Below, one piece after another: positions 5,378-56,678 of a DNA stretch of 64,000 nucleotides (position 1 is its first letter; the number at the start of each line of letters is the position of its first letter). Location of the stretch: assembly GCA_023382335.1 (NCBI GenBank), contig JAMCPM010000006.1, forward strand, positions 70,372 through 134,371, read 5' to 3'. This DNA is from Actinomycetota bacterium. Its GTDB lineage: Bacteria > Actinomycetota > Thermoleophilia > BMS3ABIN01. Under the pieces are notes generated by a model. The model was not told where the DNA came from, did not search any database, and was given only the letters and a program-made list of their open reading frames with translations. Both the position numbers and the translations under genes were made by a program.

Positions 5378-6289
5378 CTAGTGCTGCTCGTCCAGCTCCC
5401 CGTGCGGGCAGGCCGGCTCTGCATGGATCAGCGCGTCGCTCACCGCGGGTATCTTCTTTTTGATCTCCTCCGCCAGTTCATGCGAAATGTCATGGGCCTG
5501 CCCCAGGCTGGTGCCCTCATCCAGCTCGATGCAGAGGTCCAGAAGCACCTTGCTGCCAGCCTGCCGCGCCCTCAGACTATGGAAGTTGACCACCTCGGGA
5601 TGTCCCTTGGCCAGCTCCCGTATCTGTTCGAGCAGTTGTTCGTCGGGACTTTTATCAAGCAGTATCGAGGCCGTGCGCAGGCCTGAACGCACCGCGGTGG
5701 CGCCGATGATGAGCGCCACCATTATCGCCGCGATCGGATCGGCTACCTTTATCCCCAGGGCCGCAAGCGCCAGACCCGCCACGACCGCGAGCGCGCCCCA
5801 CATGTCCGAGATGAAATGGAGCGCGTCCGCCTCCAGGGCGGCGCTGCCGCCGGCCCGGTGGGCGGATGCATGCAGAAAGTGGCTGGTGCGGAAGTCGACG
5901 GCGATGGCGATTATCATCACCGCCAGCGCGTACCAGGTGACCTGGATCTCGAAGCCCTCGATCAGTCGCCTGACCGATTCGTAAACGATGACGATGCAGG
6001 TCCCGCCCAGCAGCAGCATCTGCACCCAGCTGCTCATGTTCTCGAATTTCTCGTGGCCGAAGGCGTGGGTTTCGTCGGCCGGCCTCTCGGCCCAGCGGAT
6101 GCCCAGGTATGCCAGCAGGCTGGCGACGAGATCGAGCAAAGAATGGGTCGCTTCGGCCAGGATGCCGATGCTGCCGGTGAGAACGCCGGCCACCACCTTT
6201 AGCGCGATCAAAAAGATGTTCACCAGCACCGAGACCAGCGCTGCGCCCAGCTTGGTGCCGGTGTTCGGTTTTTCGTGGACATGCATCAA
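5378..6289 (-). CDS. cation diffusion facilitator (CDF) family divalent metal efflux transporter
   Basis: Six predicted TM helices, the HSLLDLV...HFISDMWGA CDF signature, and a C-terminal cytoplasmic domain (HSLRARQAGSKVLLDLCIELD). Confidence 0.85.
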   Translation of the reverse strand: MMHVHEKPNTGTKLGAALVSVLVNIFLIALKVVAGVLTGSIGILAEATHSLLDLVASLLAYLGIRWAERPADETHAFGHEKFENMSSWVQMLLLGGTCIVIVYESVRRLIEGFEIQVTWYALAVMIIAIAVDFRTSHFLHASAHRAGGSAALEADALHFISDMWGALAVVAGLALAALGIKVADPIAAIMVALIIGATAVRSGLRTASILLDKSPDEQLLEQIRELAKGHPEVVNFHSLRARQAGSKVLLDLCIELDEGTSLGQAHDISHELAEEIKKKIPAVSDALIHAEPACPHGELDEQH

Positions 6290-6349
6290 ACAAACTCGTG
6301 GCCGGTGTTATAATAGGTCGCCCTGGAAGCCTCCCCATAAGGACCTGAT

Positions 6350-7348
6350 TTGACACTGTTGCTGCTCGTGATAAGCCTCGCCATAATCCTCGCCGGCTGC
6401 GAGGGTTTCACCAACGGCATCGAGTGGTTCGGCAAGAAACACGGTCTGGGAGAGGGAGCCGTCGGCAGCATCCTGGCCGCGGTCGGCACCGCCCTGCCCG
6501 AGACGCTCATCCCCCTCATCGCCCTGGTCTTCGCCTCCGCTGAGAACTCAAAGGACATCGGCGTCGGCGCCATCCTCGGGGCACCCTTCATGCTCTCCAC
6601 TCTGGCGATGTTCGTCACCGGCGCCGCCCTGGTAATATTCAGCCGAACCAACGGCCGCGATATCAACCCCAGAGTCAACCACAAGATCATCAGCCGCGAC
6701 CTGGGTTTCTTCCTCATCTTTTACCTGACCGCGGTCATTGCCGGGCTTGTCCATGTGCGGCCGCTTCACTGGGTGCTGGTCGGGTTCCTTTTGATAGGTT
6801 ATGGCATTTATGTTTATGTGACGCTAAGGACCGAGGGCGACCTCGACGGCCACACCCGGCCGTTGTACCTGGCAAGCTCGCATCCGCCCAACTTTCCCCG
6901 CCTGCGGTGGATCCTGCTGCAGGTAGCGATCTCCCTCGGCGCCATCATCGCCGGGGCACATTTCTTCATCGGGGCGGTTTCTGACATATCCGGCTATCTG
7001 GGGCTGCCGGCGCTGGTCATCTCCATGCTGATCTCGCCGATCGCCACCGAGCTGCCGGAGAAGTTCAACAGCGTGCTCTGGATCCGCTCGCGGAAAGATA
7101 CCCTCGCCCTGGGGAACATCACCGGCGCGCTGGTTTTTCAGAGCACCTTCCCGGTTTCGATCGGGCTACTGCTGACCAATTGGGAACTCGACACGGTTTC
7201 CCTGGTTAGCGCCGGGATAGCGCTTGGCAGCGGCTCGTTGCTGTATTTATGGATGCGGTTCAAACGGACGCTCAGCTGGTGGATGTTGCTGCTTTGCGGG
7301 GCATGGTACTCGGCGTTTGTGGTCTACGCGCTGGCGACGAACCTGTAA
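6350..7348 (+). CDS. Ca2+/Na+ antiporter (CaCA family, YrbG-like) membrane protein
   Basis: Two alpha-repeat regions, GSILAAVGTALPETLIP and ALGNITGALVFQSTFPVSIG. About 10 TM segments. Confidence 0.8.
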   Translation: MTLLLLVISLAIILAGCEGFTNGIEWFGKKHGLGEGAVGSILAAVGTALPETLIPLIALVFASAENSKDIGVGAILGAPFMLSTLAMFVTGAALVIFSRTNGRDINPRVNHKIISRDLGFFLIFYLTAVIAGLVHVRPLHWVLVGFLLIGYGIYVYVTLRTEGDLDGHTRPLYLASSHPPNFPRLRWILLQVAISLGAIIAGAHFFIGAVSDISGYLGLPALVISMLISPIATELPEKFNSVLWIRSRKDTLALGNITGALVFQSTFPVSIGLLLTNWELDTVSLVSAGIALGSGSLLYLWMRFKRTLSWWMLLLCGAWYSAFVVYALATNL

Positions 7349-7918: not shown

Positions 7919-9574
7919 TTAGTTAGAGTTTGTTGTGTCAGTACTTGCCAGGTGCTCGTCGCAATAACTATCATAATGTGAAAGATCGTAAACCTTTTTG
8001 TCTGAATCATAGTATCTAAGCTCGGCATTGTTAATCTTGCCGTTTCCCGCAATGACTACATATCGGAACCCATAGCTACAAAGTGCATCATAATTGCCTG
8101 CCTGAAAAGCTTTTTCGATCCCTTCATCTTGCCAAGCGACGCTGCCTGGTCTGCGTGAAATATAGCCGCCGAATATGGGATGGCCATGAATTAGTTGATA
8201 GTTCAACAGCTTATCGGTGGTATCATCAAAAACCGCGCCAGGAGGCATATTCTTTATCGCGTATGCATATGCTGGCTGCTCGGGAATGATCGGCCGCAAT
8301 GGCTGGGCCGGCATGTATTCGAAGACAACCAGCAATATGGTTGCACCAACAACCAGCCGTTTCTTTTTTATTTGGGAGTCCCATATACGCGCCAGCGACA
8401 TGGCGCTGATCATCGACGCGGCCAGGATGACCACGGCCATCATCCGGTTGGGCATGCCGCCAATATTGGCAATCGGCAGAACCGATTGTAGAAGCGAATA
8501 AGGTAAGGGGAGACTTATCTCATAATTCACGATATGTAAAATCGGCCCCAGGCTTAGCAAAAGAAAGAAGAAAAGGATAAAAAGCCACGCCGTGAAGAAA
8601 TCCTTGGCTGGCAACTTCTTGCGATTGATAATTGCAAAGATTATGAGACCCCAGACGCTGATCCCTATGAAACTTTGACCAAGGCCTTCCCCGAAGTGCA
8701 ACTGCTGGCTAAACCAGTCGTTCAGCGGGCCAGGAATTATAAAGCTTATCAGTTCGGTAGAAAAGACTTCCGGTATGTGTAAGTCGACGAAACCGCCTGC
8801 CTTAAAAGCACGCGACAATGCCAATAGAAAAGGGGAGATTGCGGCAACCGAAATTGTTAAGAAAATTCCGAACGAAACCAGATGTCTGATTGTAGCGAAG
8901 TACTCCGGCTTTTTCTTGATCATTACAGCAATCAGGAAAATGAATGCCAGCAGAGCGGCATAGAAAGCATAATATAGTTCTGAATAAAAAGTGAGGATGA
9001 GAAAGAGCGCAGCAATTGATGCAGTTGTGATACGTGGTCGTATTAGCATTTTGTGCCAGAAAAGCAAAAACAACGGTAGCCATTCGAGAGAAGTCAAGTT
9101 GATATGGCTGCCAAGGTGCAGAACCGAATATCCGGAAAAGGCATAGATAAAACCGGCCAGAATGCTCGGCCAGTAGTTCTCGCAAAAATAATAAGCAAGC
9201 AAAAAAGCGCTTAAGCCACTGGCGACTACTGATATAACCACAAGAATATTGTATGAAGTGAAGGGAGAGAAGAATGACTCTAAAAAAACCCCGGGAATTG
9301 AATTCACAAGACTTAAAGTATGCGCCAGCAACGAAGTCCCTTCCGGGAAATGAATCATTGAAGAAAAATACGGATTTTGCAGATTTACAATCGATTGGCG
9401 CACATGCCATATATTCCAGACGTTTTGCATGCCATCCACTTCGTCGCCGAAGAAGCGTGATGGAAGTTCCAGGATTGCAGGAAAAGAAAGAATACAAAAA
9501 CATGCGAAGTATACAAATGCGGGGAAAACGCCAAACTTAATAAAACGTGCCTTAGACAGCTTCGCTAGATTCAT
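7919..9574 (-). CDS. large polytopic membrane protein, GT-C-fold/YfhO-like (putative membrane glycosyltransferase), in AT-rich islet
   Basis: 551 aa with more than 10 predicted TM helices, an FGDEVDG acidic motif in the first extracytoplasmic loop, and a C-terminal soluble domain. Codon usage is strongly AT-biased, unlike the flanking genes. Confidence 0.6.
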   Translation of the reverse strand: MNLAKLSKARFIKFGVFPAFVYFACFCILSFPAILELPSRFFGDEVDGMQNVWNIWHVRQSIVNLQNPYFSSMIHFPEGTSLLAHTLSLVNSIPGVFLESFFSPFTSYNILVVISVVASGLSAFLLAYYFCENYWPSILAGFIYAFSGYSVLHLGSHINLTSLEWLPLFLLFWHKMLIRPRITTASIAALFLILTFYSELYYAFYAALLAFIFLIAVMIKKKPEYFATIRHLVSFGIFLTISVAAISPFLLALSRAFKAGGFVDLHIPEVFSTELISFIIPGPLNDWFSQQLHFGEGLGQSFIGISVWGLIIFAIINRKKLPAKDFFTAWLFILFFFLLLSLGPILHIVNYEISLPLPYSLLQSVLPIANIGGMPNRMMAVVILAASMISAMSLARIWDSQIKKKRLVVGATILLVVFEYMPAQPLRPIIPEQPAYAYAIKNMPPGAVFDDTTDKLLNYQLIHGHPIFGGYISRRPGSVAWQDEGIEKAFQAGNYDALCSYGFRYVVIAGNGKINNAELRYYDSDKKVYDLSHYDSYCDEHLASTDTTNSN

Positions 9575-9837: not shown

Positions 9838-10422
9838 CTATTCTCGTTCGATCGAATAGATTGGATGTAATTCATTCCAGCCATGCTCCGCATCCAAAAC
9901 ATAGTCGCCTAACACTTTGACACGATCTCCTGCTTTTGGTGTAAGAATTGGATAGGTAAAGCCCCTACACGCATCTTTTGCGTCCTCTTGCGTAATATTG
10001 TTCTGGCAAACCGGCTCGAGCACCAAATCGCCATGCTGACCGTCAACGTTCTTTTGGTTCAACATGCCTGAATACTGTGAGTCTAAAGTTAGACGGATGT
10101 GATAATCACCATCCGCTTCCTTCTTTACTGCTGCGACTGTCCCGGTGACCGTTTTGCAATTCTCAATCCTGTGAAGGCGTTGAGGGTTGTACACATGGTT
10201 CCAAAGACTTTCGTCGCACTCACTGGAACTGGGAGATGTTGCAGTGACTGACAATGGTGGTGTGATTGCGCCGGTCGTGGAAGCAAGTGGCGCCATACCC
10301 TGATCAGATTTAAGTGTCGAGGAGCCTGATTCAGCGCAGCCTATGATTAGAACAACAGCAAAAGGCAGAATTAGAAAGATTCTCCGGAAAGAAAGTAGGA
10401 ACACAATTCCGATCCTGGCCAA
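9838..10422 (-). CDS. hypothetical secreted lipoprotein (Cys-rich, unknown function), AT-rich islet
   Basis: N-terminal signal peptide with a lipobox (LIIGC), Ser/Thr-rich linker and several conserved Cys. No recognisable domain. Confidence 0.55.
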   Translation of the reverse strand: MARIGIVFLLSFRRIFLILPFAVVLIIGCAESGSSTLKSDQGMAPLASTTGAITPPLSVTATSPSSSECDESLWNHVYNPQRLHRIENCKTVTGTVAAVKKEADGDYHIRLTLDSQYSGMLNQKNVDGQHGDLVLEPVCQNNITQEDAKDACRGFTYPILTPKAGDRVKVLGDYVLDAEHGWNELHPIYSIERE

Positions 10423-10605: not shown

Positions 10606-12240
10606 CTAGAACCAGTGCCGCAGCCACCACTTCTCGAAAGCTACCTTGCCCCAGTGCGCGGGATGCGTCGGCGGGTATAACCGCACCGCCGGCTCGGGTT
10701 CCGCGTAGAAGTTGCCCGCGGCAAATCCGGCCTTGCCGCCGCCAAGCTCCAGCCAGCAGTAGCCGTGGCCCTCGAATGTCGCCTCCGGCGTCTTGCCTTC
10801 GATCTCGGCGACGATCCTGTCGGCTACGACCCCGGCTTCAGAGTGGGCGAAGACGCCCGCCATGGGAAGATTCTTGCCGTTCGCCAGCCGGATATTGTTG
10901 ACGTCGCCGATGGCGTATACGCCCTCGTGCTCGGTCTGAAGCGTATTCGCGTCTACATGTATCCACCCGGAGGAGCCGAGCAGGCCGGAGTAACCCACAA
11001 CCTCGGGCGCCCGGTGAGGAGGAACGGCCAGGAGCAGGTCGACCTCCTGGGGATCACCGCTGGATTGAGTGATGGTGTGGTCGCCGGGGCTTATCCACTC
11101 GAAGGTGAACAGCGGATGGTAGCCGATGCCGCGCTTCTTGAGCACTTTTGATATGGCGTCGCCCATCGCCGCTCCTGCTATGGGCATTGGCTGATGCTCG
11201 GGAGTATAGATATCAACCTTCGACCTTTCCCGCACACCCTTTTTCCGCAGGAAGGAATCCACCAGAAGCGCAGCTTCGTACGGCGCCGCCGGGCATTTGA
11301 AAGGCATGTCGGTGACAAGCACTCCGACCTTGCCGCCGGAAAAATCGTCCAGGGCGGCCTGTATCCTTGCCGTTCCTTCCAGGTCGTAGAGGTTGAGGGC
11401 CATCTCATCAAAACCCAACACTTCCTGCGGAGCCAGCTCCGCCCCCAGCGCCACTATCAGGAAGTCAAAATCGACTTCCTGCGACGGGGTTCTCACCAGC
11501 TTGCGGTCCATATCTATCTGCACCGCCGGCTCGTTGATGAACTCGACTCCCTTTTTAACCAGGTCCGACAGTGGACGCTGGATCTGCTCGGCGCTGCGCA
11601 GGCCGACCGCGCGCCAGAGCAGCGATGACTGGAAGAGGTGATTGGGTTCGCGGTCCATGACGATGATCCGATGGCCCTTGGGAAGCTTCTTGCGCAGGTG
11701 ATAGGCAGCCACCAGGCCGCCGGCCCCTCCACCGAGGATGAGGATGTTGGCGCCCCATGCCCGCCCGGAGCGCCGCGGTGCTGCCTGGGGCGCAGGCTTC
11801 GCTTCGCCCGGCGCCACCGGCTCCTCGTATATTTTTTCTACCGCGGCCGTGAAGCCGGCCTCGTTAAACTCGCTCTCCCACAAGATCACCTTGCCGTCGG
11901 GACCTACGAGAATAGAGTATGGCACCCAACCATTGCTGAGCTGCTTGAACAGCGTTCCGTCTTCGTCGGGGATAACGTCGAAAGGAAGACCGTACTCTTC
12001 CTTCCATTGATCGCAGGCTTCCTTCGTTTCATACGGGCCCACGTAAACGGCCGAGAATCCTTTGGAGGAGAAGCGCTCATACAGGCGCTTTACAGCGGGG
12101 GCCTCCCGCCTGCAACCCTGTCACTGCCCTTTCCAGAAAACGATGAGCAACCCCTTGTCGGGAGCAGGCAGACCCAGCTCCTGTAAAGCGATAGCCTGCC
12201 CTTCGGAAACGCCTTTTTGGCCTTCATCGATGACTTTCAT
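10606..12240 (-). CDS. candidate selenoprotein: TlpA/ResA-like thioredoxin domain (UxxC redox motif, TGA at 12121-12123) fused to sulfide:quinone oxidoreductase (SQR)-type flavoprotein
   Basis: ATG at 12240 with RBS AGGGGA. The frame reads MKVIDEGQKGVSEGQAIALQELGLPAPDKGLLIVFWKGQ-TGA-QGCRREAPAVKRLYERFSSKGFSAVYV.... This aligns to the TlpA/ResA motif FWASWCGPCRAEAP, with the TGA exactly at the first Cys. The frame then continues without interruption into the 478-aa ORF (GGGAGGLVAAYHL FAD-binding site, SQR catalytic Cys in FKCPAAPYE and GYCWLE). A stem-loop lies 6-31 nt downstream of the TGA (+ coordinates 12090-12115). Confidence 0.65.
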
Positions 12241-12291
12241 TCGATCCCCTTTCCGTAATGCCAGGTCGCGGTCCTGGCCATGAATTCGTGT

Positions 12292-12648
12292 TTAATGCTT
12301 CCTGTCCCCAGGGTATTTCCCCGTCTTCGTCACCGGGCAGCACGCCGGCGCTTCCAGGTCTCCCTCGTATAGTTTCCTTAAGAGTTTCAGGAGGTCCGGC
12401 ACGATCGGATCGACCAGGAAGTAGCAGCGCAGGCGGCCGTCCACGTAATAATCGATCAAGCCGTTCCTTCGGAGCATCCCCAGGTGCTGGGAGATATTCG
12501 GTTGACTTGCCTCCAGAAGCTCGTCAAAGTCGCTGACGCACCTGACGCCGTCCTCGAGCTGCTCGAGGATCTGGATCCTCAAAGGATGCCCCATTATCTT
12601 GAGCAGCTCGATCCGGTCGCGCTCGATATTTTTCGCTTTTGGTTTCAT
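12292..12648 (-). CDS. ArsR/SmtB-family HTH transcriptional regulator, SqrR/BigR-like (candidate persulfide sensor)
   Basis: HTH region HPLRIQILEQLEDGVRCVSDFDELLEASQPNISQHLGMLRRNGLI. Cys37 in helix alpha2 and C-terminal Cys103/104 (ACCPV) match the positions of the reactive Cys pair in SqrR/BigR. It sits directly upstream of the SQR-fusion gene on the same strand. Confidence 0.85.
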   Translation of the reverse strand: MKPKAKNIERDRIELLKIMGHPLRIQILEQLEDGVRCVSDFDELLEASQPNISQHLGMLRRNGLIDYYVDGRLRCYFLVDPIVPDLLKLLRKLYEGDLEAPACCPVTKTGKYPGDRKH

Positions 12649-19229: not shown

Positions 19230-21662
19230 TTACCTGATCAGCATGCCCGGCAGCTCGTCGAAGGAATTGTTGAAGGTGGTGCGCTGGCTAACCACCAGTT
19301 CTGGCTGGCCGCTGGTGCTGACAACCTGGACCGGACCGCTCATCACGCCGGGGAACAGTGGAGTCACGCGGCCACCCGCCGGAATCGAGTAGTGGCCGAT
19401 CAGACTGCCGCCGATCCTGATATCGACCTCGGCGGTAGACTGACTTTGGTTGCCGACCAGGATCCACGTGTGCATTCCTGCAGATGCACTGTCATACCAT
19501 GTGAACCATTGTTCGCTGGCAAGATCCTGGGTCTCGGTTCCGGATACCTCTGCGAAGGAACCTCTGAACACCGATCTCTGACCGACGATAAGCGGCTGGC
19601 TGTTTGAGCAGACGACCCGTACCGGCCCGTTCATCAGGCTGGGATATTCCGGGGTGATCCTGCCGCCGGCCGGTATCGAATAAACTCCGATGAGACGGTC
19701 AGCTACGTAAATCGCCACGTCGGCGGGCTGTGCTCCCTGGTTGCCGACCAGAACCCATGTCCTCATGCCGAGGCTCTGCTCGTCATACCAGGTGAAGTGA
19801 TATTCGGAGGTGAGTTGCGACGCCGCCTTACCGCCGACCTCGTTGAAGCTGCCGCTGTAGATAACCCTGTTGCTCACGTTCAGCGGCTGTCCGTTGGTCG
19901 AGACAACGCGAACCGGCCCATTCATGGTGCCGGGGAACTCAGGCAGAACAACACCGCCCGCAGGTATCACATAGTGACCCTTCACTTGACCGGCGACGTA
20001 CACATCGACCTGGGCCGCTTCATTGCCCTGGTTGCCGATGACAACCCAGTCCTTCATCCCTGCTGAGACTTCGTCGTACCACGTCAGGATCTGATCGCTG
20101 GAAAGATCGGCCTGGGCCACCGCCGGCAGTTCGGCAAATGTGCCGTTATAAGTCACACGCTCGCTGACCAGTAGATCGCCGCCGGTCGTCGACACCACTT
20201 TCACCGGACCGGCTGAAAGGCCGGCATAGAAAGGAGTCGCCCTTTGCTTCGGCGCGATGTCATAGCTTCCCCGCAAGACTCCGCCGATATATACCTCGGC
20301 ATGCTGCGTCACATCGCCCGGATTGCCAAGGATCACCCATGTTCTCATGGAAGCGCTGTCATACCATCCGAAATAGTAGTTGAGATCGCTGCTATTATCG
20401 ACGTTCACTGGCACTGTTGACGTAGTTACCAGGCCGGCCTGGTCATAAGCCTTGGCAATCAGACTGTAAGGGCCGTTGGCAAGATTCCTCGAGTTGAAGC
20501 TAAAATTAAACGGACCCGCAGCGCTGGTTCCCATCAGAGTGTCGCCGACATACAGCTCCACCTTCGAAAGGGCGACGTTATCCGAGGCGTTCACGGCGAC
20601 CTGGGCGGTGCCATTCAACGTTGCTCCCGATACCGGAGAATTAATAGCGACCGTGGGCGGCGTGGTGTCCGGAGGAGCTACCGCTGCCCGAAACGCGTTC
20701 AGGCTGGCCTCGGAACTATTGATCCTCCAGTCGGTCTCTTTGTTTATGTCGAACCATGTGAGCATGGCGATCCGCGGGAACCTTGTCGGAAGACTGCTGA
20801 ACGCATCTGTTATCCACTTGGCTTTGCCGCCGTTTTGTGAGTTGCCGCCGACTTCCGTTGTCGCGGTCTCGCTGATAACTACCGGCTTGCTGGTGTTGGC
20901 CACAGCGACGTCATAACTGGGGCCGATTACCTGTTCGAAGCTCTGCCAGGTAGAGGTCCATTCCGGAGTGTTGTACATCGTCCCCCAGTTGTATCCATCG
21001 ATTCCGACGTAGTCCACATAATTATCGCCGGGATAGTAGGTGTCAAAAGTAGCCTGCGCGTCTGCGGTGGATCCGTCACGGTTGGGTGACCAGACCCACT
21101 TCACATTGGTCGCGCCTTCCTGGACGAAAATATCGTGCACGTGCCTCCATGCGGGAATGTAATCCTGGGGCGAATTGCCGTTGGCCGTGCCGCTCCAGGT
21201 TACCCAGTTACCGTTCATCTCGCACATCGGACGGAAGTAAACCGGATAACCGAAATCCTTCAATTGCCGGGCCCAGCGCCTGATGTCATTGTCAAAATTG
21301 CCAGCTGTGATATTTATTAGCCGGTAAGCCGGCTGGTTGGTCGGGTCGAGGGAGAAGTCGTGCGGCTCCCAGGCCAACTGGATCGTGCGTCCTTCGGCAG
21401 CCATGGGCCGGAAGGCGTCCGCGTAGAAATCTTCGCTGATGGATTCGTACCAGAGAAATACGTCGGTCTGCCGTCCGATCGTTGTCTCCAGATTGTGCAG
21501 ATCGTCAACTGAGGGAAGCTGCTCGTTCGGTAACTGGGGATCAGGGAAGAAGACTCCGACCTGGACCGGTTGAGATGTTGCCCAAGCCGTGCCAACGCCC
21601 GCACCAGCGAACAGAACAGCAAACAGGGAAAAAACGATTATTGCAACTGCAAGACGAAACAC
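19230..21662 (-). CDS. secreted GH26-like (beta-mannanase-type) glycoside hydrolase with Ig-like domain and four tandem ~95-aa C-terminal repeats
   Basis: Signal peptide FRLAVAIIVFSLFAVLFAGAGVGTAWA (GTG start at 21662 after GAGGAGG). Catalytic motifs FRPMCEMNGNW and VVISETATT. Then PTVAINSPVSGA..., an Ig-like domain. Then four repeats of the pattern FTWYD..S.GM.TWVLVGNQG...V.IY..G...G.Y.IPAGGR.TP.FP..MNGPVRVVS.NGQPL.VS.R. Confidence 0.7.
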   Translation of the reverse strand: MFRLAVAIIVFSLFAVLFAGAGVGTAWATSQPVQVGVFFPDPQLPNEQLPSVDDLHNLETTIGRQTDVFLWYESISEDFYADAFRPMAAEGRTIQLAWEPHDFSLDPTNQPAYRLINITAGNFDNDIRRWARQLKDFGYPVYFRPMCEMNGNWVTWSGTANGNSPQDYIPAWRHVHDIFVQEGATNVKWVWSPNRDGSTADAQATFDTYYPGDNYVDYVGIDGYNWGTMYNTPEWTSTWQSFEQVIGPSYDVAVANTSKPVVISETATTEVGGNSQNGGKAKWITDAFSSLPTRFPRIAMLTWFDINKETDWRINSSEASLNAFRAAVAPPDTTPPTVAINSPVSGATLNGTAQVAVNASDNVALSKVELYVGDTLMGTSAAGPFNFSFNSRNLANGPYSLIAKAYDQAGLVTTSTVPVNVDNSSDLNYYFGWYDSASMRTWVILGNPGDVTQHAEVYIGGVLRGSYDIAPKQRATPFYAGLSAGPVKVVSTTGGDLLVSERVTYNGTFAELPAVAQADLSSDQILTWYDEVSAGMKDWVVIGNQGNEAAQVDVYVAGQVKGHYVIPAGGVVLPEFPGTMNGPVRVVSTNGQPLNVSNRVIYSGSFNEVGGKAASQLTSEYHFTWYDEQSLGMRTWVLVGNQGAQPADVAIYVADRLIGVYSIPAGGRITPEYPSLMNGPVRVVCSNSQPLIVGQRSVFRGSFAEVSGTETQDLASEQWFTWYDSASAGMHTWILVGNQSQSTAEVDIRIGGSLIGHYSIPAGGRVTPLFPGVMSGPVQVVSTSGQPELVVSQRTTFNNSFDELPGMLIR

Positions 21663-22050
21663 GAGCCAAGCCTCCTCGGCGGCAGCCAGGCTGTTATAGT
21701 CACAAGACCTTAGACCCTTGGCTTTGCGCCACTCAGTTTCCTGAGCTTTGCCCTTATCACCTGGACTTGGCCTCTCCCCCACCAACCACGTACCAGAGCG
21801 CGGCTACACTAATAGCCACTATTTGTATCGACCCACGCGTGTAGATGTTTGAATTCCGACCGATGGGAAAGGCATTAAATGAAGCAAAACACCGGATTAC
21901 CAGCAGGGGTAATCGGGTAGGAATAAGGGATGTTATTGTTTGAAAAGAGCTCGTCTTTGTGCAATTATTACGATGGACCTAACCGCGGACAGTTAGTATT
22001 GTGGGCGCTCGAGTTGACGCGGGGGGAGGCGGGAAGGTTGATCCCCAGCC

Positions 22051-28353: not shown

Positions 28354-29001
28354 TTAGGGTGTGCCGGCGCCTGGGACTGCCAGCGATTGCCCGGCGAATT
28401 CATCCAGGAATGACTTTGACTCCTGGCCAATCGGCGTACTCGGATTCAGATCGTAGGATTTCTGCCAGGCGTCCTTGGCCGCAGTCAGATTGCCGGCGCC
28501 GTTGTATTGAACCCATCCAAGTGAATGCCAGGCCCTCTGGTTATCGGGCGCCGCAGTAACACATGTGTTAAGTTCGCGCAGTGAGATATCGATCATCTGC
28601 AGATATGAATATGACAGTCCCATGTCTATCCGCACCTCGACAAAATCTGGCTTGATGGCAAGATATTTCCGATACTGATCGACCGCATTCTTGTAGCTGC
28701 GGTATGAGTCGTTCGTCTGGTTATTCTCCCCCTGGGCCTGTCCTTCCTCGAGATAGCTGTCACCAAGGCCCCTGAGAGCGTCAAGATCGCCAGGATTGCG
28801 CTGAAGCAACGCTTCATACGCGGTTATGCGGTCCCGTATGTCAGCTAGCTGCACCTGCAGCGCCGGATTCTTCTGCTTGTCCGCACTCGCGTCAGCGCTA
28901 CCACTGTCACCGCTAAGAAGTTTTGTGGGAATCAGATAGCCAAGCGCCAGCGCCACCGCCAGGACGGGAATCAGTAAAAGCCATTTCATATTGACCTTCA
29001 T
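28354..29001 (-). CDS. tetratricopeptide-repeat protein with N-terminal signal/anchor (possible CcmH/CycH-like accessory of cytochrome c maturation)
   Basis: Signal/TM segment MKWLLLIPVLAVALALG, followed by TPR-like repeats (AYEALLQRNPGDLDALRGLGDSYL, AVDQYRKYLAIKPDF, AWHSLGWVQY). It is the last gene of the lgt-ccdA-resA operon. Confidence 0.65.
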   Translation of the reverse strand: MKVNMKWLLLIPVLAVALALGYLIPTKLLSGDSGSADASADKQKNPALQVQLADIRDRITAYEALLQRNPGDLDALRGLGDSYLEEGQAQGENNQTNDSYRSYKNAVDQYRKYLAIKPDFVEVRIDMGLSYSYLQMIDISLRELNTCVTAAPDNQRAWHSLGWVQYNGAGNLTAAKDAWQKSYDLNPSTPIGQESKSFLDEFAGQSLAVPGAGTP

Positions 29002-29016
29002 TTTATCTTTTACCTC

Positions 29017-29643
29017 TTATTGAGCTTGCAGCAGATGCTGGATCAGCTGGTTTTCGGGTGCCTGGGAACTGGTCCAGTTGACCGGACCGAGGATGTGATC
29101 CCGGACCACCCCGTTCTTGTCGATGATGAAGCTCTCCGGAACGCCGGTTGCCTGATACATGCCGTTAACCTTCTTGTCGGAATCGAGAAGTATGGGGAAG
29201 GTCAGACCCAGCTGTTTTACAAATGGCTGGACATCAGTGGAACCACGGGTATCGATGCTGGCGGCGAGGATCTCGAAGGGCTTGCCCTTCATATTCTGAT
29301 AAAGCTGGTTCATCGAAGGCATTTCCTCCCGGCAGGGGTTGCACCAGGTGGCCCAGATGTTGAGCAGCACTACCTTGCCGCGATAATCTGAAAGGGTAGC
29401 TTCCCCGCCGCTCATCAGCGGAAGAGTGAAATCAGGCGCGGCGGTCCCTGCTTCCACAGGCGGAGTTTTTCGTGACTGCCAAAAGAAAAATGCGCCGACG
29501 GCAATACCGATGATGACCAGGAAAACGGCCACGGCGATGCCGACATCCTTTGCCGTCCAGCCATCGTCGGCCACCGGCAACGATAAGTTCTCAGTCTTTT
29601 CTTCGATCTGGTTCAATGCGTGAGAAGTCCAGAGCCTTTGCAT
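29017..29643 (-). CDS. resA: TlpA/ResA-family thiol:disulfide oxidoreductase (cytochrome c biogenesis), membrane-anchored
   Basis: TM anchor, then KVVLLNIWATWCNPCREEMP, the canonical WCxPC redox motif. It is a Cys-containing paralog of the Sec-containing domain at 12.1 kb. Confidence 0.85.
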   Translation of the reverse strand: MQRLWTSHALNQIEEKTENLSLPVADDGWTAKDVGIAVAVFLVIIGIAVGAFFFWQSRKTPPVEAGTAAPDFTLPLMSGGEATLSDYRGKVVLLNIWATWCNPCREEMPSMNQLYQNMKGKPFEILAASIDTRGSTDVQPFVKQLGLTFPILLDSDKKVNGMYQATGVPESFIIDKNGVVRDHILGPVNWTSSQAPENQLIQHLLQAQ

Positions 29644-29797
29644 CCATGCCCCCGAGGGCGGAAATCGCTTGATGAGAATCTAACAGGCGAAGAGTGAGAG
29701 CTGAACAGTCACCTCAGAGCGGGGGCGTCTTGATTTCTGAATCCATACTAGCATCTGATGCACCCCATCGACAACACGGGGAAAGAGCCGGCCGGCG

Positions 29798-30556
29798 TCA
29801 TACATTTACCGACGGAAGCCACCGTTGCATCCATTCGGTCATCACTTCGATCTGGCCGGTGGCCAGCAGAACTCCGAACAGGATCAAGAGACTGCCTGAA
29901 GCGATCTTGATGGCTCCAAAGTGATTTTTCACGAATGAGAAGGTGCCGATTGCCTTGGCAAAAAGGAAGCCGGAAAGAACGAAAGGCAAGCCCATCCCAA
30001 GCGCATAAACGAAAAGCAGGCTGGCCCCGGCCGCAGGGTCCTGCGTTCCTATCGCCAGCATGTATATCGATCCCAGCAGCGGCCCGGTGCAAGGACCGAT
30101 GCCCACCGAAAAAACCATGCCCGCGCCCAGGATTCCCAGGAGCCCAGCAGGTTTGCTGAGCATGCGCAGCCGTCTCTCCTTCTGTAACCAGAGAGGATTG
30201 AAGATGCCCAGGGCAAAGATGCCAAAGCCAATGAGAAATATTCCGGCCAGTATTTCCAGGAATCGTTTGCCCTCGCTGCCGTTGCCGGTAAAGAACGACA
30301 GAAACGAGCCAAGCTCACTGCCGGCGAGACCCGCCGCGGCCCCTTGCAGGCTGAAAAACACCACGAAGCCGATGACGAAAGCCACACTGGCGATGGCGAC
30401 CTTGCGAACGTTCGCGCCAAGTTGATCGACACCGACTCCGGAAACATACGATAAATAGCCGGGAAGCAGCGGTAAAACGCAAGGAGAGAGGAATGAGGCT
30501 AGACCGGCTATGAAAGCCCAGACAAACGCGAGAAATGTTACTTCGGTGATTTCCAA
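29798..30556 (-). CDS. ccdA: cytochrome c biogenesis protein CcdA (DsbD-like transmembrane thiol-disulfide electron transporter)
   Basis: Six TM helices. Conserved Cys in LSPCVLPLLP and GIGPCTGPLL. Confidence 0.85.
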   Translation of the reverse strand: MEITEVTFLAFVWAFIAGLASFLSPCVLPLLPGYLSYVSGVGVDQLGANVRKVAIASVAFVIGFVVFFSLQGAAAGLAGSELGSFLSFFTGNGSEGKRFLEILAGIFLIGFGIFALGIFNPLWLQKERRLRMLSKPAGLLGILGAGMVFSVGIGPCTGPLLGSIYMLAIGTQDPAAGASLLFVYALGMGLPFVLSGFLFAKAIGTFSFVKNHFGAIKIASGSLLILFGVLLATGQIEVMTEWMQRWLPSVNV

Positions 30557-30623
30557 GAAAAGCAGGTGGCAGAAAACCCGTTATTGCAGCGATAATTCAA
30601 TATAGCAGAGGCACGAAAAACTA

Positions 30624-31391
30624 TCAACGCACCTTGGGCTTGCCCTCCGGACGCGTTTGGATCCAGACAAACGCCGCCAGGGCGATGATGGCGGTTCCTA
30701 AAGCCAACAGCTGCTGCTGAAGCTGTCCTTCACGCTGCATGCGAACGAATTCCACGAGGAAACGCTCTGTTCCGGCTATGGCCAGGTAGAGGCAGGCCAT
30801 GGACCAGTCCCGTTTGAGCCGCGGCCGCAGATACATGATTATTGCGAAGATCGCGAGCGATGAAAACGACTCGTAAAGCTGCGTCGGCTGCACTGAAACG
30901 CCCTGCCCGAATTGAATCGTGGTCGGTGGCGATCCCTTGGGGAATTGCATGGACCAGGGAAGAGTCGATGGGCGCCCATAGTCATCTCCGTTGAGAAAAC
31001 AGCCCATGCGGCCGAAGGCGTAACCGATCGCCAAGGCCGGGGCGCATGCGTCCAGGGCCTTGCCCAGGGGCAGATGGTAGAGGAAGATCACAATGACCGC
31101 GGCGATGGCGCCGCCGATCAGACCGCCGTACCAGACCAGCCCCGCGCCGCTGAAGGCGGAAGCGAGCGGATCATTCCTTAATTCGTCCATGTGAAGCAAG
31201 AGGTAATGGACCTTGCTACCTATAAGTCCACCCACAGCCGCGGCAATGGTCAGCCAGTAAACGTGTTCAGGGTTGAGGCCCTTCCGTTTAAACTCAAAGT
31301 AGGCGACAGTCCCGGCCGCCACGAAGCCAAGGGCCATCATCAGACCGAAAGTGTGTATGGTCAAAGGCCCGATGGAAAAGTCTGGATACAT
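30624..31391 (-). CDS. lgt: prolipoprotein diacylglyceryl transferase
   Basis: Lgt signature GRMGCFLNGDDYG. Polytopic membrane protein of 255 aa. Confidence 0.9.
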   Translation of the reverse strand: MYPDFSIGPLTIHTFGLMMALGFVAAGTVAYFEFKRKGLNPEHVYWLTIAAAVGGLIGSKVHYLLLHMDELRNDPLASAFSGAGLVWYGGLIGGAIAAVIVIFLYHLPLGKALDACAPALAIGYAFGRMGCFLNGDDYGRPSTLPWSMQFPKGSPPTTIQFGQGVSVQPTQLYESFSSLAIFAIIMYLRPRLKRDWSMACLYLAIAGTERFLVEFVRMQREGQLQQQLLALGTAIIALAAFVWIQTRPEGKPKVR

Positions 31392-31773
31392 CGTATAAAG
31401 GTCCCTTAATCGTTAATATAAATCAATCAATCGGTCAAGACAAACAAAGGAGTTTTGATAAACAAAATGCTAAAGCTATTTTGCACTCTTCCGATAAGGG
31501 TTTTCGAACGCATCATATACGAAAAGGCAAACCCGCCGCGAGGCGGGGACGCAAAGCCAGGGGTCTCACGAAGACAGCCCAGCCGCCGAAGCTTTTGAAC
31601 GCAAGCTCTTAGGTTTTGGTCCTGGGCTTTATTACGGCCTATGGCGAGCATAGCTCAATCGCTTTGGCATTTCCAAGGTCGTTGAGCTTTTTTGTTGGAT
31701 GCGACGGGCACTAGGGATGAGGTCAGTCAATCTTCCTCGGCGGGAGGAAGGCAACAGCGAAAGGGGGTACCAG

Positions 31774-32319
31774 GTGATATTTTCAGCAAAGATAACCGCT
31801 CTAGCCGCGATATCGTTGATTTTGGTCCTGGTTCTTGCATCAGCCGTGTACGGAAAAACAAATTCCGACCCGGTAACCGTCAGTGCAACAGTCGATAATT
31901 TTATCTCCATCAGCCATCCCGGAAGCGTATCCCTGGGAACAATCCTGGGAACAGGCGGGTCTTCGGAAAACAGCGCCACCTGGAATGTGGCCACCAATAA
32001 CGCACTGGGATACACTCTGAATATTTCGGCCGCCGGTTCGCCGGCGATGAACAAGGGCGCCGATTCGTTCACAGACTACAGCGGCCCGGCTGTGTGGTCC
32101 ATAGCCGCAACCGATTCAGCTTTCGGTTTCAGCGTCAATGATAATGCACACTATCAGGGTTTCACCACACCCGGAACGCCTGTCCAGATTGTAAACTCCC
32201 CAAATCCGACCTCAGGACAGGATACCGCAATATTCTTCAAGGCTGAAGTTGGCGCCAGCCATCTGCAGCCCAGCGGCAGCTACGCCGCCAGTCTGACAGT
32301 TACAGCCACGACCCTGTGA
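31774..32319 (+). CDS. small secreted beta-rich protein (putative surface fibre/adhesin subunit), first gene of surface-protein cluster
   Basis: GTG at 31774 is preceded by AAAGGGGG. Signal peptide MIFSAKITALAAISLILVLVLASAVYG, and a Ser/Thr/Asn-rich mature region of about 155 aa with alternating beta-strand patterns. The ATG-started 31699 ORF has no RBS. Confidence 0.55.
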   Translation: MIFSAKITALAAISLILVLVLASAVYGKTNSDPVTVSATVDNFISISHPGSVSLGTILGTGGSSENSATWNVATNNALGYTLNISAAGSPAMNKGADSFTDYSGPAVWSIAATDSAFGFSVNDNAHYQGFTTPGTPVQIVNSPNPTSGQDTAIFFKAEVGASHLQPSGSYAASLTVTATTL

Positions 32320-52062: not shown

Positions 52063-52135
52063 GGCAGTAAGTCTATCAGGAAAGGGGTGGCGGCTGATGG
52101 CAAGGACCGCCCGAATCCATTAACATCCATGTACC

Positions 52136-52876
52136 ATGGCTTCCGTCAAACAGCATTACGACAGCTTTCTGGGCCGGAATTACTCGTGGATGTGCGGCGA
52201 CTTCGGGAAAAGGACGAACGAGAATCTGGAGTTCTTTCGCAGTCTGGAGGTTGCGGCGTCTCCCGGTGAGCGAGCGCTCGATCTCGGGTGCGGCCCGGGC
52301 TTTCAGTCGATCGCGCTGGCGGCGCTCGGCTTCGAGGTGACCGCCGTGGACCTATGCGCTGTTTTGCTGGAGGAACTGGCGACCCGGAACCAGGGCGGCG
52401 GCATCAAGACCGTTGAGTCGGACCTGTTGGAGTTCCTGCGTGATTGTCCGCATGAAAGCGTCAGCGTCATAACCTGCATGGGCGATACGGTCACGCATCT
52501 TGGATCGTTGGACGAGGTATCGTCGCTGCTGGCGATGTCTTACGAGCTCCTAGCGGAGGGCGGCATGCTGGTGCTTTCATATCGGGACCTGACCGCGGAA
52601 CTGACTGGGGCCGGGCGCGCCATCCCCGTCTACAGCGATGAAAACCGCATTTTGACTACATTCCTGGAATACGGTCCGGAACTGGTCACGGTCAATGACA
52701 TGCTCTATGAACGATCAGGGAGCGGCTGGAGCTTCTGCAGCAGCAGCTTCAACAAGTTAAGGGTCGGAGCGGAATGGATGACGCCGAAATCCGGCGAGCT
52801 GGGCTTCAGGCTGGTTTATGAAGATGCAGACAAAGGCTTCGTCAGGCTGGCGCTGTTGAAACAGGTGACAGGCTAG
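52136..52876 (+). CDS. class I SAM-dependent methyltransferase
   Basis: Motif I ALDLGCGPGFQ, motif II region, Rossmann fold. 246 aa. Confidence 0.75.
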   Translation: MASVKQHYDSFLGRNYSWMCGDFGKRTNENLEFFRSLEVAASPGERALDLGCGPGFQSIALAALGFEVTAVDLCAVLLEELATRNQGGGIKTVESDLLEFLRDCPHESVSVITCMGDTVTHLGSLDEVSSLLAMSYELLAEGGMLVLSYRDLTAELTGAGRAIPVYSDENRILTTFLEYGPELVTVNDMLYERSGSGWSFCSSSFNKLRVGAEWMTPKSGELGFRLVYEDADKGFVRLALLKQVTG

Positions 52877-54174: not shown

Positions 54175-54182
54175 GCCCTTGA

Positions 54183-56543: not shown

Positions 56544-56678
56544 TCCAATGCCTCCGGAACGTTTATTCTAAATGTTCCCTACCCCCTATGTCTGCCCGCC
56601 AAGCGCAAAACTTGAGTATTTTAGTATTGTAGCAGCGATATTGCTGATGGAACAGCCCCGCGGCGCCGGCCCGGGATT

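What the first reader, a model, noticed from the sequence alone, without database searches (positions are those of the whole stretch)
10606..12240. Candidate Sec-containing TlpA-like thioredoxin domain fused to sulfide:quinone oxidoreductase
An ATG at 12240 with a good RBS opens a frame that reads through a TGA at 12121-12123. It then continues without interruption into the 478-aa SQR-type flavoprotein ORF. The TGA falls exactly where the first Cys of the TlpA/ResA redox motif sits. The genome's own ResA at 29017-29643 reads FWATWCNPCREEMP; this gene reads FWKGQ-TGA-QGCRREAP, a UxxC arrangement, inside an otherwise complete thioredoxin fold. A stable 10-bp stem with a 5-nt AGGCC loop lies 6-31 nt 3' of the UGA, at the distance expected for a bacterial SECIS. 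The flavoprotein moiety keeps both SQR catalytic cysteines (FKCPAAPYE, GYCWLE) and has no signal peptide or TM segment, so it is predicted cytoplasmic. It sits directly downstream of a persulfide-sensor-like ArsR regulator. A selenocysteine redoxin covalently fused to SQR would be a new selenoprotein architecture.
Basis: partly seen in the sequence, partly recalled or inferred. Interest (0 to 1): 0.9.

Follow-up and report, generated by a model that had tools for sequence, protein, structure and literature searches.

The report
Selenocysteine redoxin fused to sulfide:quinone oxidoreductase
This gene almost certainly reads its internal TGA as selenocysteine. It makes a 544-residue enzyme in which a selenium-containing thioredoxin-like domain is tethered to a sulfide:quinone oxidoreductase, and it belongs to a large family that databases record only as truncated "FAD-dependent oxidoreductases".

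Summary

- **Reading frame.** On the minus strand, ATG 12240 opens a frame with a single in-frame TGA (12121-12123). The frame continues to the stop at 10606.
- **Domains.** An AhpC/TSA-type redoxin domain spans the TGA. A type III-like SQR domain follows a Pro/Ala-rich linker.
- **Conservation of the TGA.** All 98 related loci I recovered carry TGA at exactly this codon: 16 MAG loci, 80 metagenome loci and 2 others. Protein sequence is conserved on both sides.
- **Cysteine homologue.** The one Cys form found (P0002, unfused) has TGC here. B. subtilis ResA aligns its nucleophilic Cys74 to this position.
- **SECIS.** A hairpin starts 10 nt after the UGA and is fully paired in 77 distinct sequences. 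One pair switches G-C/A-U at least 9 times without a single mismatch. Synonymous variation falls to 0.12 here, against about 0.45 gene-wide.
- **Not an error.** The TGA is present in three independent assemblies. TGA is an ordinary stop elsewhere in the window.
- **Not shown.** selA, selB, selC and selD were not found, because only about 75 kb of this genome was accessible. The "persulfide-sensor" label on the ArsR regulator is unproven.
- **Function.** A sulfane-sulfur relay on SQR is my inference, not a demonstrated activity.

Novelty: a new variant of a known kind. Interest: about 0.7.

The parts
10606..12240 (-). Complete coding sequence: 544 residues with Sec at position 40, plus the TAG stop at 10606-10608
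   Evidence: Translation. Fifteen complete MAG orthologues of 543-559 aa have the same layout, and about 30 more come from metagenomes.
12245..12254 (-). Ribosome-binding site GGAAAGGGGA, 4 nt before the ATG at 12238-12240
   Evidence: Sequence. Orthologues have AAAGGAG at the same place.
12121..12123 (-). In-frame UGA, predicted selenocysteine codon (residue 40, first position of the UxxC motif U-Q-G-C)
   Evidence: TGA at this codon in 98 of 98 related loci. TGC in the Cys form P0002. Aligns to ResA Cys74. Present in three independent assemblies.
12094..12110 (-). Core of the SECIS hairpin: GGCGGG / AGGCC loop / CCCGCU, starting 10 nt after the UGA
   Evidence: RNAalifold finds this and only this helix in 77 distinct sequences. 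The six core pairs are paired in every sequence. Pair 17-27 is AU in 46, GC in 31 and broken in 0, with at least 9 independent switches. Synonymous diversity is lowest here.
12071..12090 (-). Second hairpin (AAGCGC...GCGCUU), conserved only in the Thermoleophilia-like clade
   Evidence: Predicted on the 19-sequence alignment but not on the 77-sequence alignment.
11821..12240 (-). N-terminal TlpA/ResA-like thioredoxin-fold redoxin domain (residues 1-140). It holds U40, C43 (12112-12114) and a third invariant Cys, C76 (12013-12015)
   Evidence: Pfam AhpC-TSA, Redoxin and Thioredoxin_8. Best solved relative is B. subtilis ResA, E = 6e-12. Invariant Cys columns.
11752..11820 (-). Pro/Ala/Glu-rich linker of variable length and sequence (residues about 141-163)
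   Evidence: This is the only poorly conserved, indel-rich stretch in the 16-sequence alignment.
10609..11751 (-). Type III-like sulfide:quinone oxidoreductase flavoprotein domain. It has the FAD motif GGGAGG, the redox cysteines C316 (11293-11295) and C495 (10756-10758), and a conserved Trp-rich C-terminus
   Evidence: Pfam Pyr_redox_2 and FCSD_central. Human SQOR E = 2.5e-31 with both Cys aligned. NF049943 scores 234 bits, below its cutoff of 525.
12040..12042 (-). GTG that mechanical ORF finding takes as the start of a 478-aa protein. It is a false start inside the redoxin domain
   Evidence: The public calls are likewise truncated: 492 aa in the NCBI MAG, and the 39-aa piece is called as a separate gene in a Logan assembly.
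12292..12648 (-). ArsR/SmtB-family regulator directly upstream on the same strand, with invariant Cys37 and Cys75 and a C-terminal APACCPVTKTGKYPG tail
   Evidence: Pfam HTH_5. Conserved upstream in most loci of this clade. Cys conservation.

Best explanation
**What is shown, or close to shown.** The locus is one gene, not a fragment followed by an SQR gene. The UGA at 12121-12123 is recoded, almost certainly to selenocysteine. A SelB-type SECIS hairpin 10 nt downstream directs the recoding. The product is a 544-residue cytoplasmic protein. Its N-terminal ResA/TlpA-like redoxin domain carries a U40-x-x-C43 centre and a third invariant Cys76. A flexible Pro/Ala-rich linker of about 25 residues joins it to a type III-like sulfide:quinone oxidoreductase with both redox cysteines, C316 and C495.

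**What I infer about function (about 0.4 confidence).** The SQR domain oxidises sulfide on its Cys pair and FAD and passes the electrons to quinone. The sulfane sulfur left on the active-site cysteine is then attacked by the tethered selenolate of U40, forming a Se-S(H) adduct. C43 or C76 resolve or relay this sulfur. It goes on to a carrier such as the DsrE-like protein encoded beside the gene in sister genomes, or to a low-molecular-weight thiol or sulfite.

On this reading the Sec domain is a built-in sulfane-sulfur acceptor. It would play the role that the fused rhodanese domain plays in other SQRs, within an ArsR-controlled sulfide or sulfane-sulfur stress operon.
For: **Recoding**

- One internal TGA in a 545-codon frame, with a redoxin domain that spans it.
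- TGA at the identical codon in 16 of 16 MAG loci, 80 of 80 metagenome loci at 55-94% identity, and L001, L002, L030 and L031.
- The 39 upstream codons evolve as coding sequence: differences at codon positions 1, 2 and 3 are 237, 118 and 711.
- The Cys form P0002 has TGC here. ResA Cys74 aligns here.
- The SECIS core is paired in all 77 distinct sequences. One pair is AU in 46, GC in 31 and broken in 0, linking an Arg/Gln second codon position to a synonymous Pro third position. At least 9 independent switches are needed.
- Synonymous diversity is 0.12-0.13 in codons 39-58 and 0.30-0.57 in the rest of the gene.
- The same TGA is seen in an NCBI MAG and two Logan assemblies from different runs.
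- TGA ends 14 of 39 genes in the window.
- The 120 best database homologues are all 426-499 aa, so all are called from a start after the TGA.

**Function**

- SQOR alignment with both Cys, and type III SQR as the best NCBIfam match.
- U40, C43, C76, C316 and C495 are invariant.
- Neighbours in sister loci: ArsR, TauE, a DsrE-like protein and an unfused SQR paralogue.
- Precedent: SQR-rhodanese fusions that handle sulfane sulfur (PMC9163753).
Against: - No selA, selB, selD or tRNA-Sec lies in the 64-kb window, in the roughly 8 kb of extra contig, or in about 0.8 Mb of related loci. The rest of the genome could not be searched.
- In this single sequence the hairpin's folding energy is no better than shuffled sequence, and Rfam has no match.
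- The SECIS overlaps conserved residues (C-R-R/Q-E-A-P-A), so part of the nucleotide conservation is protein-level.
- Function: there is no biochemical evidence. The full-length structure could not be modelled. The ArsR is not a recognised BigR/SqrR orthologue, and its C-terminal Cys-Cys would also suit a metalloid sensor. The ArsR/DsrE context is largely confined to the Thermoleophilia-like clade and is rarely seen in the distant soil clade.
Confidence: 0.85

Rival explanations
1. The TGA is a true stop. The locus is a decayed or split gene, and the functional product is an SQR that starts at a downstream codon (GTG 12042 or nearby). The 39-codon piece would be a relic or a separate small peptide.
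For: Every public gene call treats it this way. No Sec machinery was found in the accessible sequence.
Against: - A relic would not keep an in-frame TGA at one codon in 98 of 98 loci down to 55% identity.
- It would not show third-position-biased substitution upstream.
- It would not keep the thioredoxin fold intact across the stop.
- It would not keep a covarying hairpin right after the stop.
- The downstream 'start' would remove the first strand and the active-site helix of the redoxin fold.
Confidence: 0.02
2. The UGA is recoded, but not to selenocysteine. Possibilities are SECIS/SelB-dependent insertion of Cys by a tRNA-Sec-like tRNA(Cys), which has been described for a few bacteria (my own recollection, not checked here), or near-cognate read-through.
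For: The sequence data show recoding, not the identity of the inserted residue. Machinery genes were not seen.
Against: - A plain TGC would achieve Cys insertion without cost, yet only 1 relative in about 100 uses TGC.
- The position is the nucleophilic residue of a CxxC redox centre. This is the commonest context of bacterial Sec (PMC13188914).
- TGA is a normal stop in the window.
Confidence: 0.04
3. The protein is a selenoprotein, but the redoxin is the working end and the flavoprotein only services it. The SQR-like module would exchange electrons between the membrane quinone pool and the U40/C43 selenenylsulfide. It would act either as a quinol-driven reductase for a Sec peroxidase or disulfide reductase, or as a quinone-driven oxidase of thiols or selenols. 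The true substrate would then be a peroxide, a disulfide or persulfide, or a metalloid or selenium compound rather than sulfide. This would resemble AhpF-AhpC, NTRC or thioredoxin-glutathione reductase (my own knowledge).
For: - Fusions of flavoprotein disulfide reductases with redoxin or rhodanese domains are common. One such relative appears among the PDB hits (3nt6).
- The ArsR has a C-terminal Cys-Cys like metalloid sensors.
- Methyltransferase and MMPL genes accompany the operon in some loci.
- An unfused SQR paralogue already exists in several of these genomes.
Against: - Both sulfide-oxidising cysteines and the SQR-specific central domain are strictly kept.
- DsrE-like and TauE neighbours point to sulfur trafficking.
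- No NAD(P)H-type second dinucleotide motif was noticed by reading the sequence. This was not formally tested.
Confidence: 0.25

Closest known systems
Sec-containing Prx-like / TlpA-like thiol:disulfide oxidoreductases and 'redoxin family' selenoproteins (UxxC; PF00578, PF08534, cd02966), as listed in PMC13188914 Table 1
   Same: The fold is the same thioredoxin-fold redoxin. The Pfam families are the same. Sec replaces the N-terminal, nucleophilic Cys of CxxC.
   Different: The listed families are named by their redoxin domain alone, and no SQR fusion appears among them. Here the domain lacks any signal peptide or anchor. It is covalently fused to an SQR and carries a third invariant Cys. It scores below the ResA subfamily cutoff, 50.7 against 170 bits.
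[quoted passage not shown]
   Same: It is the best NCBIfam match for the flavoprotein domain (234 bits). It is also an SQR that uses selenium.
   Different: That family has Sec inside the flavoprotein, in an HxxU motif. The protein in this window has the sequence H-G-Y-C495, but I did not align the two, so the correspondence is an inference. Here Sec sits in an added N-terminal domain. The score is far below the 525-bit cutoff, so this protein is not a member.
SQR fused to a rhodanese (DUF442) domain, e.g. Cupriavidus pinatubonensis SQR (PMC9163753)
   Same: An SQR carries a covalently attached domain with a reactive chalcogen nucleophile that handles the sulfane sulfur made by SQR.
   Different: The fold differs (rhodanese, not thioredoxin-like). 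The nucleophile is Cys, not Sec. There is a single catalytic residue rather than a UxxC pair.
Staphylococcus aureus cst operon (CstR, TauE, CstA with rhodanese/TusA/DsrE-like domains, CstB, type II SQR). From my own knowledge, not checked here
   Same: A thiol-based repressor sits next to SQR, a DsrE-type sulfur carrier and a TauE-type exporter. Sister loci L008 and L017 have ArsR, TauE, a DsrE-like gene and the SQR gene.
   Different: The regulator family differs (ArsR rather than CsoR-like). No persulfide dioxygenase was seen. In this window itself only the ArsR is adjacent.
B. subtilis ResA (PDB 1st9, 3c73)
   Same: It is the closest solved structure to the redoxin domain. The CxxC motif and the cis-Pro region align.
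   Different: ResA is an extracytoplasmic, membrane-anchored cytochrome c maturation factor with Cys-Cys. Identity is only about 30%.

Membership tests
Bacterial selenoprotein (UGA recoded to Sec) | In-frame UGA conserved in orthologues, with conserved coding sequence on both sides | tested here: met
   TGA in 98 of 98 loci. Upstream codons show a coding-type substitution pattern.
Bacterial selenoprotein (UGA recoded to Sec) | Homologues with Cys aligned to the UGA | tested here: met
   P0002 has TGC at the aligned codon. ResA Cys74 and the window's own ResA-like Cys align there. Only one close Cys form was found.
Bacterial selenoprotein (UGA recoded to Sec) | SECIS stem-loop immediately 3' of the UGA, conserved as a structure | tested here: met
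   A 6-7 bp stem begins 10 nt after the UGA, so 16 nt separate the UGA from a loop with G at its second position. One pair covaries perfectly and the rest never break. Synonymous-site diversity is lowest here.
Bacterial selenoprotein (UGA recoded to Sec) | selA, selB, selC (tRNA-Sec) and selD in the same genome | not testable with these tools
   None lies in the window, in the extra flank (L115) or in any fetched locus. Other contigs of MAG GCA_023489075.1 could not be read.
Bacterial selenoprotein (UGA recoded to Sec) | Selenium shown in the protein | not testable with these tools
   This needs 75Se labelling or mass spectrometry.
TlpA/ResA-like thioredoxin-fold redoxin (PF00578 / PF08534) | Profile match above the curated cutoff, covering the fold | tested here: met
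   AhpC-TSA scores 52.4 bits (cutoff 26), Redoxin 43.2 (26.6) and Thioredoxin_8 32.2 (27).
TlpA/ResA-like thioredoxin-fold redoxin (PF00578 / PF08534) | CxxC redox motif at the start of helix 1, with the cis-Pro loop | tested here: met
   U40-Q-G-C43 aligns to the C-E-P-C motif of ResA. The V-P of GWVPY aligns to the L-P of ResA.
ResA proper (NCBIfam NF002854) | Score above the subfamily cutoff, and an extracytoplasmic membrane-anchored topology | tested here: not met
   The score is 50.7 bits against a cutoff of 170. There is no hydrophobic N-terminal segment.
Sulfide:quinone oxidoreductase (flavoprotein disulfide reductase superfamily) | FAD-binding fold plus the SQR/FCSD central domain | tested here: met
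   Pyr_redox_2 scores 72.5 bits and FCSD_central 28.0 bits (cutoff 27). SQR and FCSD structures are the top PDB hits.
Sulfide:quinone oxidoreductase (flavoprotein disulfide reductase superfamily) | The two redox-active cysteines | tested here: met
   C316 and C495 align to Cys201 and Cys379 of human SQOR. They are invariant in 16 orthologues and kept in the paralogue.
Sulfide:quinone oxidoreductase (flavoprotein disulfide reductase superfamily) | Sulfide-dependent quinone reduction and membrane association | not testable with these tools
   The only indication is a conserved Trp-rich C-terminus, at the place where SQRs carry their membrane helices. That is an inference.
Type III SQR, selenoprotein subtype (NF049943) | Score above 525 bits, and Sec in the HxxU motif | tested here: not met
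   The score is 234 bits. The protein has Cys in its H-G-Y-C495 sequence; correspondence to the family's HxxU motif is inferred, not aligned.
BigR/SqrR-type persulfide-sensing ArsR (NF040642) | Score above the equivalog cutoff, and the sensing Cys pair | tested here: inconclusive
   The score is 37.7 bits against a cutoff of 155. Cys37, Cys75 and a C-terminal Cys-Cys are conserved, but this pattern is not diagnostic.

The most novel reading that the evidence does not exclude
Selenium is an obligate catalytic partner in a widespread, unrecognised class of sulfide-oxidising enzymes. A tethered selenolate would remove sulfane sulfur from the SQR active site through a Se-S intermediate, which would be a new way of releasing SQR product. 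This would explain why nearly every fused member uses Sec: about 100 Sec forms against a single, unfused Cys form. It would also tie soil and subsurface sulfur cycling to selenium availability.
Probability: 0.3. Interest if true: 0.85.

Novelty: new variant of a known kind. Interest (0 to 1): 0.7.

Why it matters
- **A family hidden by annotation.** The 478-aa ORF has 6800 database hits at E <= 1e-60. An unknown share of these are unfused SQRs. The 120 best all start after the TGA (426-499 aa), and every family member I checked at DNA level carries the TGA. Those that carry a name are called "FAD-dependent oxidoreductase" or "sulfide:quinone oxidoreductase". Recognising the Sec codon restores about 45-115 N-terminal residues to these calls, including the active-site motif.
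- **An addition to the inventory.** The architecture is not in the 119-family list of prokaryotic selenoproteins.
- **An unusual Sec:Cys ratio.** Most selenoprotein families have many Cys homologues. Here the fused form is Sec in every case seen. This suggests chemistry that cysteine cannot replace.
- **A testable link.** It connects selenium with sulfide detoxification, or respiration on sulfide, in Thermoleophilia-like Actinomycetota and other soil, sediment and groundwater bacteria.
- **A clean SECIS example.** It supplies a well-supported SECIS with a large covarying alignment from lineages where few are known.

Tried and rejected
1. **Extra stops in two contigs.** L001 has a second TGA at the FK-C-PAAP cysteine, and L002 has a TAG. 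Both contigs are low-coverage chimeras whose homology to the window ends at L001:962 and L002:533. I treat these stops as errors, not extra Sec sites.
2. **Folding energy of the hairpin alone.** It is not distinguishable from shuffles, so I dropped it as evidence.
3. **Rfam.** No match in the region, even at E <= 10.
4. **Sec machinery.** ARAGORN and motif scans of the window and of all loci (about 0.88 Mb) found nothing. Extending the source contig added about 8 kb without sel genes. One look-up failed.
5. **Other selenoprotein genes in the window.** A scan for in-frame TGAs followed by hairpins gave only uninformative candidates.
6. **Structure prediction.** An alignment from DNA references failed because of the stop codon.
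7. **Neighbourhood clustering across 88 loci.** It was noisy because of antisense ORFs in GC-rich DNA. Only ArsR, DsrE-like, TauE and SQR-paralogue links within the Thermoleophilia-like clade were kept.
8. **The second hairpin (12071-12090).** It is clade-specific and not part of the family-wide element.
9. **Literature.** Searches found no description of this fusion. One cited paper (Haft and Tolstoy 2025) was not held.
Full report
**1. What is in the sequence**

On the minus strand, an ATG at 12238-12240 follows a GGAAAGGGGA ribosome-binding site. It opens a 545-codon frame that holds one internal stop, TGA at 12121-12123 (codon 40), and ends with TAG at 10606-10608. Mechanical ORF finding reports only the 478-residue part that starts at GTG 12042.

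With Cys placed at codon 40, Pfam finds AhpC-TSA (52.4 bits), Redoxin and Thioredoxin_8 over residues 13-127, across the stop. It finds Pyr_redox_2 and the SQR/flavocytochrome-c central domain over residues 165-459.

The closest solved relative of the N-terminal domain is B. subtilis ResA (E = 6e-12). ResA's FWGTWCEPCKKEFP aligns with FWKGQ-U-QGCRREAP, so the UGA falls on the nucleophilic first Cys of the CxxC motif. The same is seen against the window's own ResA-like gene at 29017-29643.

The C-terminal domain is closest to human SQOR (E = 2.5e-31). C316 (FKCPAAPYE) and C495 (GYCWLE) align with the catalytic Cys201 and Cys379. The protein has no hydrophobic N-terminus and no transmembrane-like segment; the highest Kyte-Doolittle value is 1.41, at the FAD motif.

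**2. Is the TGA real and is it decoded?**

The window comes from the same population as NCBI MAG GCA_023489075.1, contig JAMDCM010000027.1. It is 100% identical across the TGA to two Logan assemblies made from different sequencing runs. The stop is therefore not an assembly error.

A first protein search with the N-terminal 186 residues found only four relatives. Three begin at "MGPFETKE", just after the TGA position. The fourth, P0002, is a 177-residue unfused "peroxiredoxin" that reads FWKEQCTTCRKEAP.

The DNA of two of the truncated hits shows the same in-frame TGA, preceded by ...GLLIVFWKG(Q/L).

- A scan of one genome per species returned 16 loci, all MAGs. Fifteen are labelled Actinomycetota (Thermoleophilia, Gaiellales, Actinomycetes) and one Acidobacteria. 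All 16 have TGA at the identical codon, an ATG with an AAAGGAG site about 39 codons upstream, and, where the contig allows, one uninterrupted 543-559-residue product.
- A metagenome scan returned 80 more loci at 55-94% identity. All 80 have TGA there, and nearly all continue into the SQR domain.
- Two further distant members (L030, annotated as a Proteobacteria MAG, and L031) read FWKEQ-TGA-LTCRQEAP and FWKSM-TGA-LGCRQEAL.

Upstream of the TGA, pairwise differences fall 237, 118 and 711 times on codon positions 1, 2 and 3. That piece is therefore translated in this frame and is under purifying selection.

TGA is an ordinary stop for 14 of 39 Pfam-supported genes in the window, and it ends this very gene in several orthologues. 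A reassigned genetic code is excluded.

The 120 best database homologues of the 478-residue ORF are all 426-499 residues long. No gene caller has produced the full-length protein, and no fused Cys version appeared.

**3. The SECIS element**

In this sequence alone the hairpin is not remarkable (z = -0.19), and Rfam has nothing. The comparative signal is strong.

Among 16 orthologues that average 77% protein identity, synonymous-codon diversity is 0.30-0.57 along most of the gene. It drops to 0.12-0.13 over codons 39-58, the only such trough.

RNAalifold on 77 distinct sequences predicts one helix. It is GGCRGG(A) / loop / (U)CCYGCC, beginning 10 nt after the UGA. All six core pairs are standard pairs in every sequence, with 15 G-U cells.

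Pair 17-27 is A-U in 46 sequences, G-C in 31 and never broken. It couples the second position of an Arg/Gln codon to the synonymous third position of a Pro codon, which protein selection cannot explain. On a tree built from a different part of the protein, at least nine independent switches are needed.

The geometry is 16 nt from the UGA to a loop with G at its second position. As I recall it, this fits the bSECISearch-type model of bacterial SECIS elements; I did not check that model here.

In the window the core is 12094-12110 with loop AGGCC. A second hairpin (12071-12090) is specific to the Thermoleophilia-like clade. The Cys form P0002 retains a damaged copy of the hairpin with one mismatch, a likely fossil of a Sec ancestor.

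**4. What could not be shown**

No tRNA-Sec, selA, selB or selD lies in the window, in about 8 kb of extra source contig, or in about 0.8 Mb of related loci. The window is a housekeeping chromosomal region with transketolase, polA, uvrAB, rpsA and aro genes.

Sec use is documented in the deep-branching actinobacterium Rubrobacter xylanophilus (PMC1794560). That is only weak, indirect support.

I consider a pseudogene or split gene essentially excluded. I consider non-Sec recoding unlikely, because a TGC codon would serve for Cys and is almost never used.

**5. What it probably does**

Five chalcogen positions are invariant: U40, C43, C76, C316 and C495. The two domains are joined by the only variable, indel-rich, Pro/Ala/Glu-rich stretch, which is a flexible tether.

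By NCBIfam the flavoprotein is nearest to type III SQR (234 bits to NF049943, cutoff 525). Several genomes also carry an unfused paralogue (43% identity, both Cys kept) next to the gene.

In the clade that contains the window, an ArsR-family regulator lies upstream on the same strand. It has invariant Cys37 and Cys75 and an APACCPVTKTGKYPG tail. Sister loci insert a very conserved 143-residue DsrE-like protein with four invariant Cys, and in L008 a TauE-type exporter. From my own knowledge, this resembles sulfide and sulfane-sulfur stress operons such as the S. aureus cst operon. SQRs fused to rhodanese domains that take up sulfane sulfur are documented (PMC9163753).

My best inference, at about 0.4, is as follows. 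The SQR module oxidises sulfide to enzyme-bound sulfane sulfur and reduces quinone. The tethered selenolate then removes that sulfur as a Se-S adduct and passes it on through C43 or C76 to a carrier or a small acceptor.

The main functional rival, at about 0.25, is that the flavoprotein merely connects the quinone pool to a Sec redoxin whose real substrate is something else: a peroxide, a disulfide or persulfide, or a metalloid or selenium compound. The Cys-Cys tail of the ArsR and the methyltransferase and MMPL genes in some loci keep this open. The ArsR is not a recognised BigR orthologue (37.7 bits against 155).

**6. Comparison with what is known, and novelty**

Sec-containing Prx-like, TlpA-like and redoxin proteins with UxxC are long-known predicted selenoprotein families. 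A type III SQR with Sec in an HxxU motif inside the flavoprotein was described in 2025 (PMC12013277; PMC13188914 Table 1). The protein here has the sequence H-G-Y-C495; I did not align it to that family, so I only infer that this is the corresponding position.

The present protein combines the two themes differently. Sec sits in an added N-terminal redoxin domain, and Cys is retained in the SQR. It is not in the 119-family inventory, reaches no NCBIfam cutoff, and is annotated in GenBank and JGI as a truncated oxidoreductase. I found no paper describing it in the held library.

I class it as a new variant of a known kind. The family is abundant in soil, sediment and groundwater metagenomes. 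Its Sec-to-Cys ratio is unusual: about 100 to 1, and the single Cys form is unfused.

**7. Verdict**

- Observation: confirmed.
- Selenoprotein interpretation: supported, at about 0.9 that the UGA is decoded as Sec into a single fused protein.
- Mechanism: inferred.
- Sec machinery: untested.
- Interest: 0.7.

Noticed in passing
window 21678-21762 (-) and 31517-31591 (+): There are two c-di-GMP-I riboswitch aptamers (72.5 and 66.5 bits). The first precedes a secreted GH26/Big_7 protein (19230-21785). The second precedes ORFs without a Pfam match (31699-32319, 32491-33897).
   Followed up: no
L003:1290-1823 (protein P0002): This is the only Cys-containing close homologue. It is unfused (177 aa) and still carries a degraded copy of the SECIS hairpin (GGAAGG-AGGCU-CCUGCC, one mismatch) after its TGC codon. 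That looks like a recent Sec-to-Cys conversion.
   Followed up: partly
L015:11534-12766, L017:11673-12824, L016:7202-8353 (also L043, L066): An unfused SQR paralogue (383-410 aa, 43% identical, both catalytic Cys and the Trp-rich C-terminus kept) lies next to the Sec-redoxin-SQR gene in several genomes.
   Followed up: partly
L017:9386-9820, L008:7345-7776, L010:9406-9837, L012:8598-9029, L016:8444-8875: A highly conserved 143-aa DsrE/DsrF-like protein (PF13686; 85-90% identity, four invariant Cys) lies directly upstream of the gene in sister loci. L008 also has a TauE/SafE exporter (6199-7311). Neither is present at this position in the window.
   Followed up: partly
window 12292-12648 (-): The ArsR regulator has invariant Cys37 and Cys75 and a strongly conserved C-terminal tail, APACCPVTKTGKYPG. 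The Cys-Cys tail recalls metalloid-binding ArsR sites as much as persulfide sensors. It is far below the BigR cutoff.
   Followed up: partly
L030:7530-8675: In a distant (Proteobacteria-labelled) member, an Aminotran_5 gene (cysteine desulfurase or selenocysteine-lyase type) lies directly downstream of the Sec-redoxin-SQR gene.
   Followed up: no
window 51218-64000 versus L115 (NCBI JAMDCM010000027.1): The window differs from the deposited MAG contig by 27 mismatches and 29 gap positions over 12.8 kb. In the gene calls on the MAG contig, DAHP synthase and cytidylate kinase are split, whereas they are intact in the window. The window is 100% identical to Logan contigs of SRR10278331 and SRR10267473 in the region studied.
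   Followed up: partly
L001:947-1220 and L002:534-710: Both short metagenome contigs are chimeric. L001 switches into a PQQ-dehydrogenase-like sequence right after a spurious TGA at the SQR catalytic Cys. L002 carries a TAG and an unrelated 3' end.
   Followed up: yes
window 7919-9574 (-) and 9838-10422 (-): Downstream of the gene lie a predicted lipoprotein (194 aa, LIIGCAESG lipobox-like) and a 551-aa polytopic membrane protein. Neither has a Pfam or NCBIfam match.
   Followed up: no
window 28354-31391 (-): There is a cluster for cytochrome c maturation and envelope thiol handling: a TPR CcmH-like gene, a ResA-like redoxin (CxxC), a CcdA/DsbD transmembrane protein and Lgt. It shows that the genome also has an ordinary Cys-type, membrane-anchored ResA.
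   Followed up: partly
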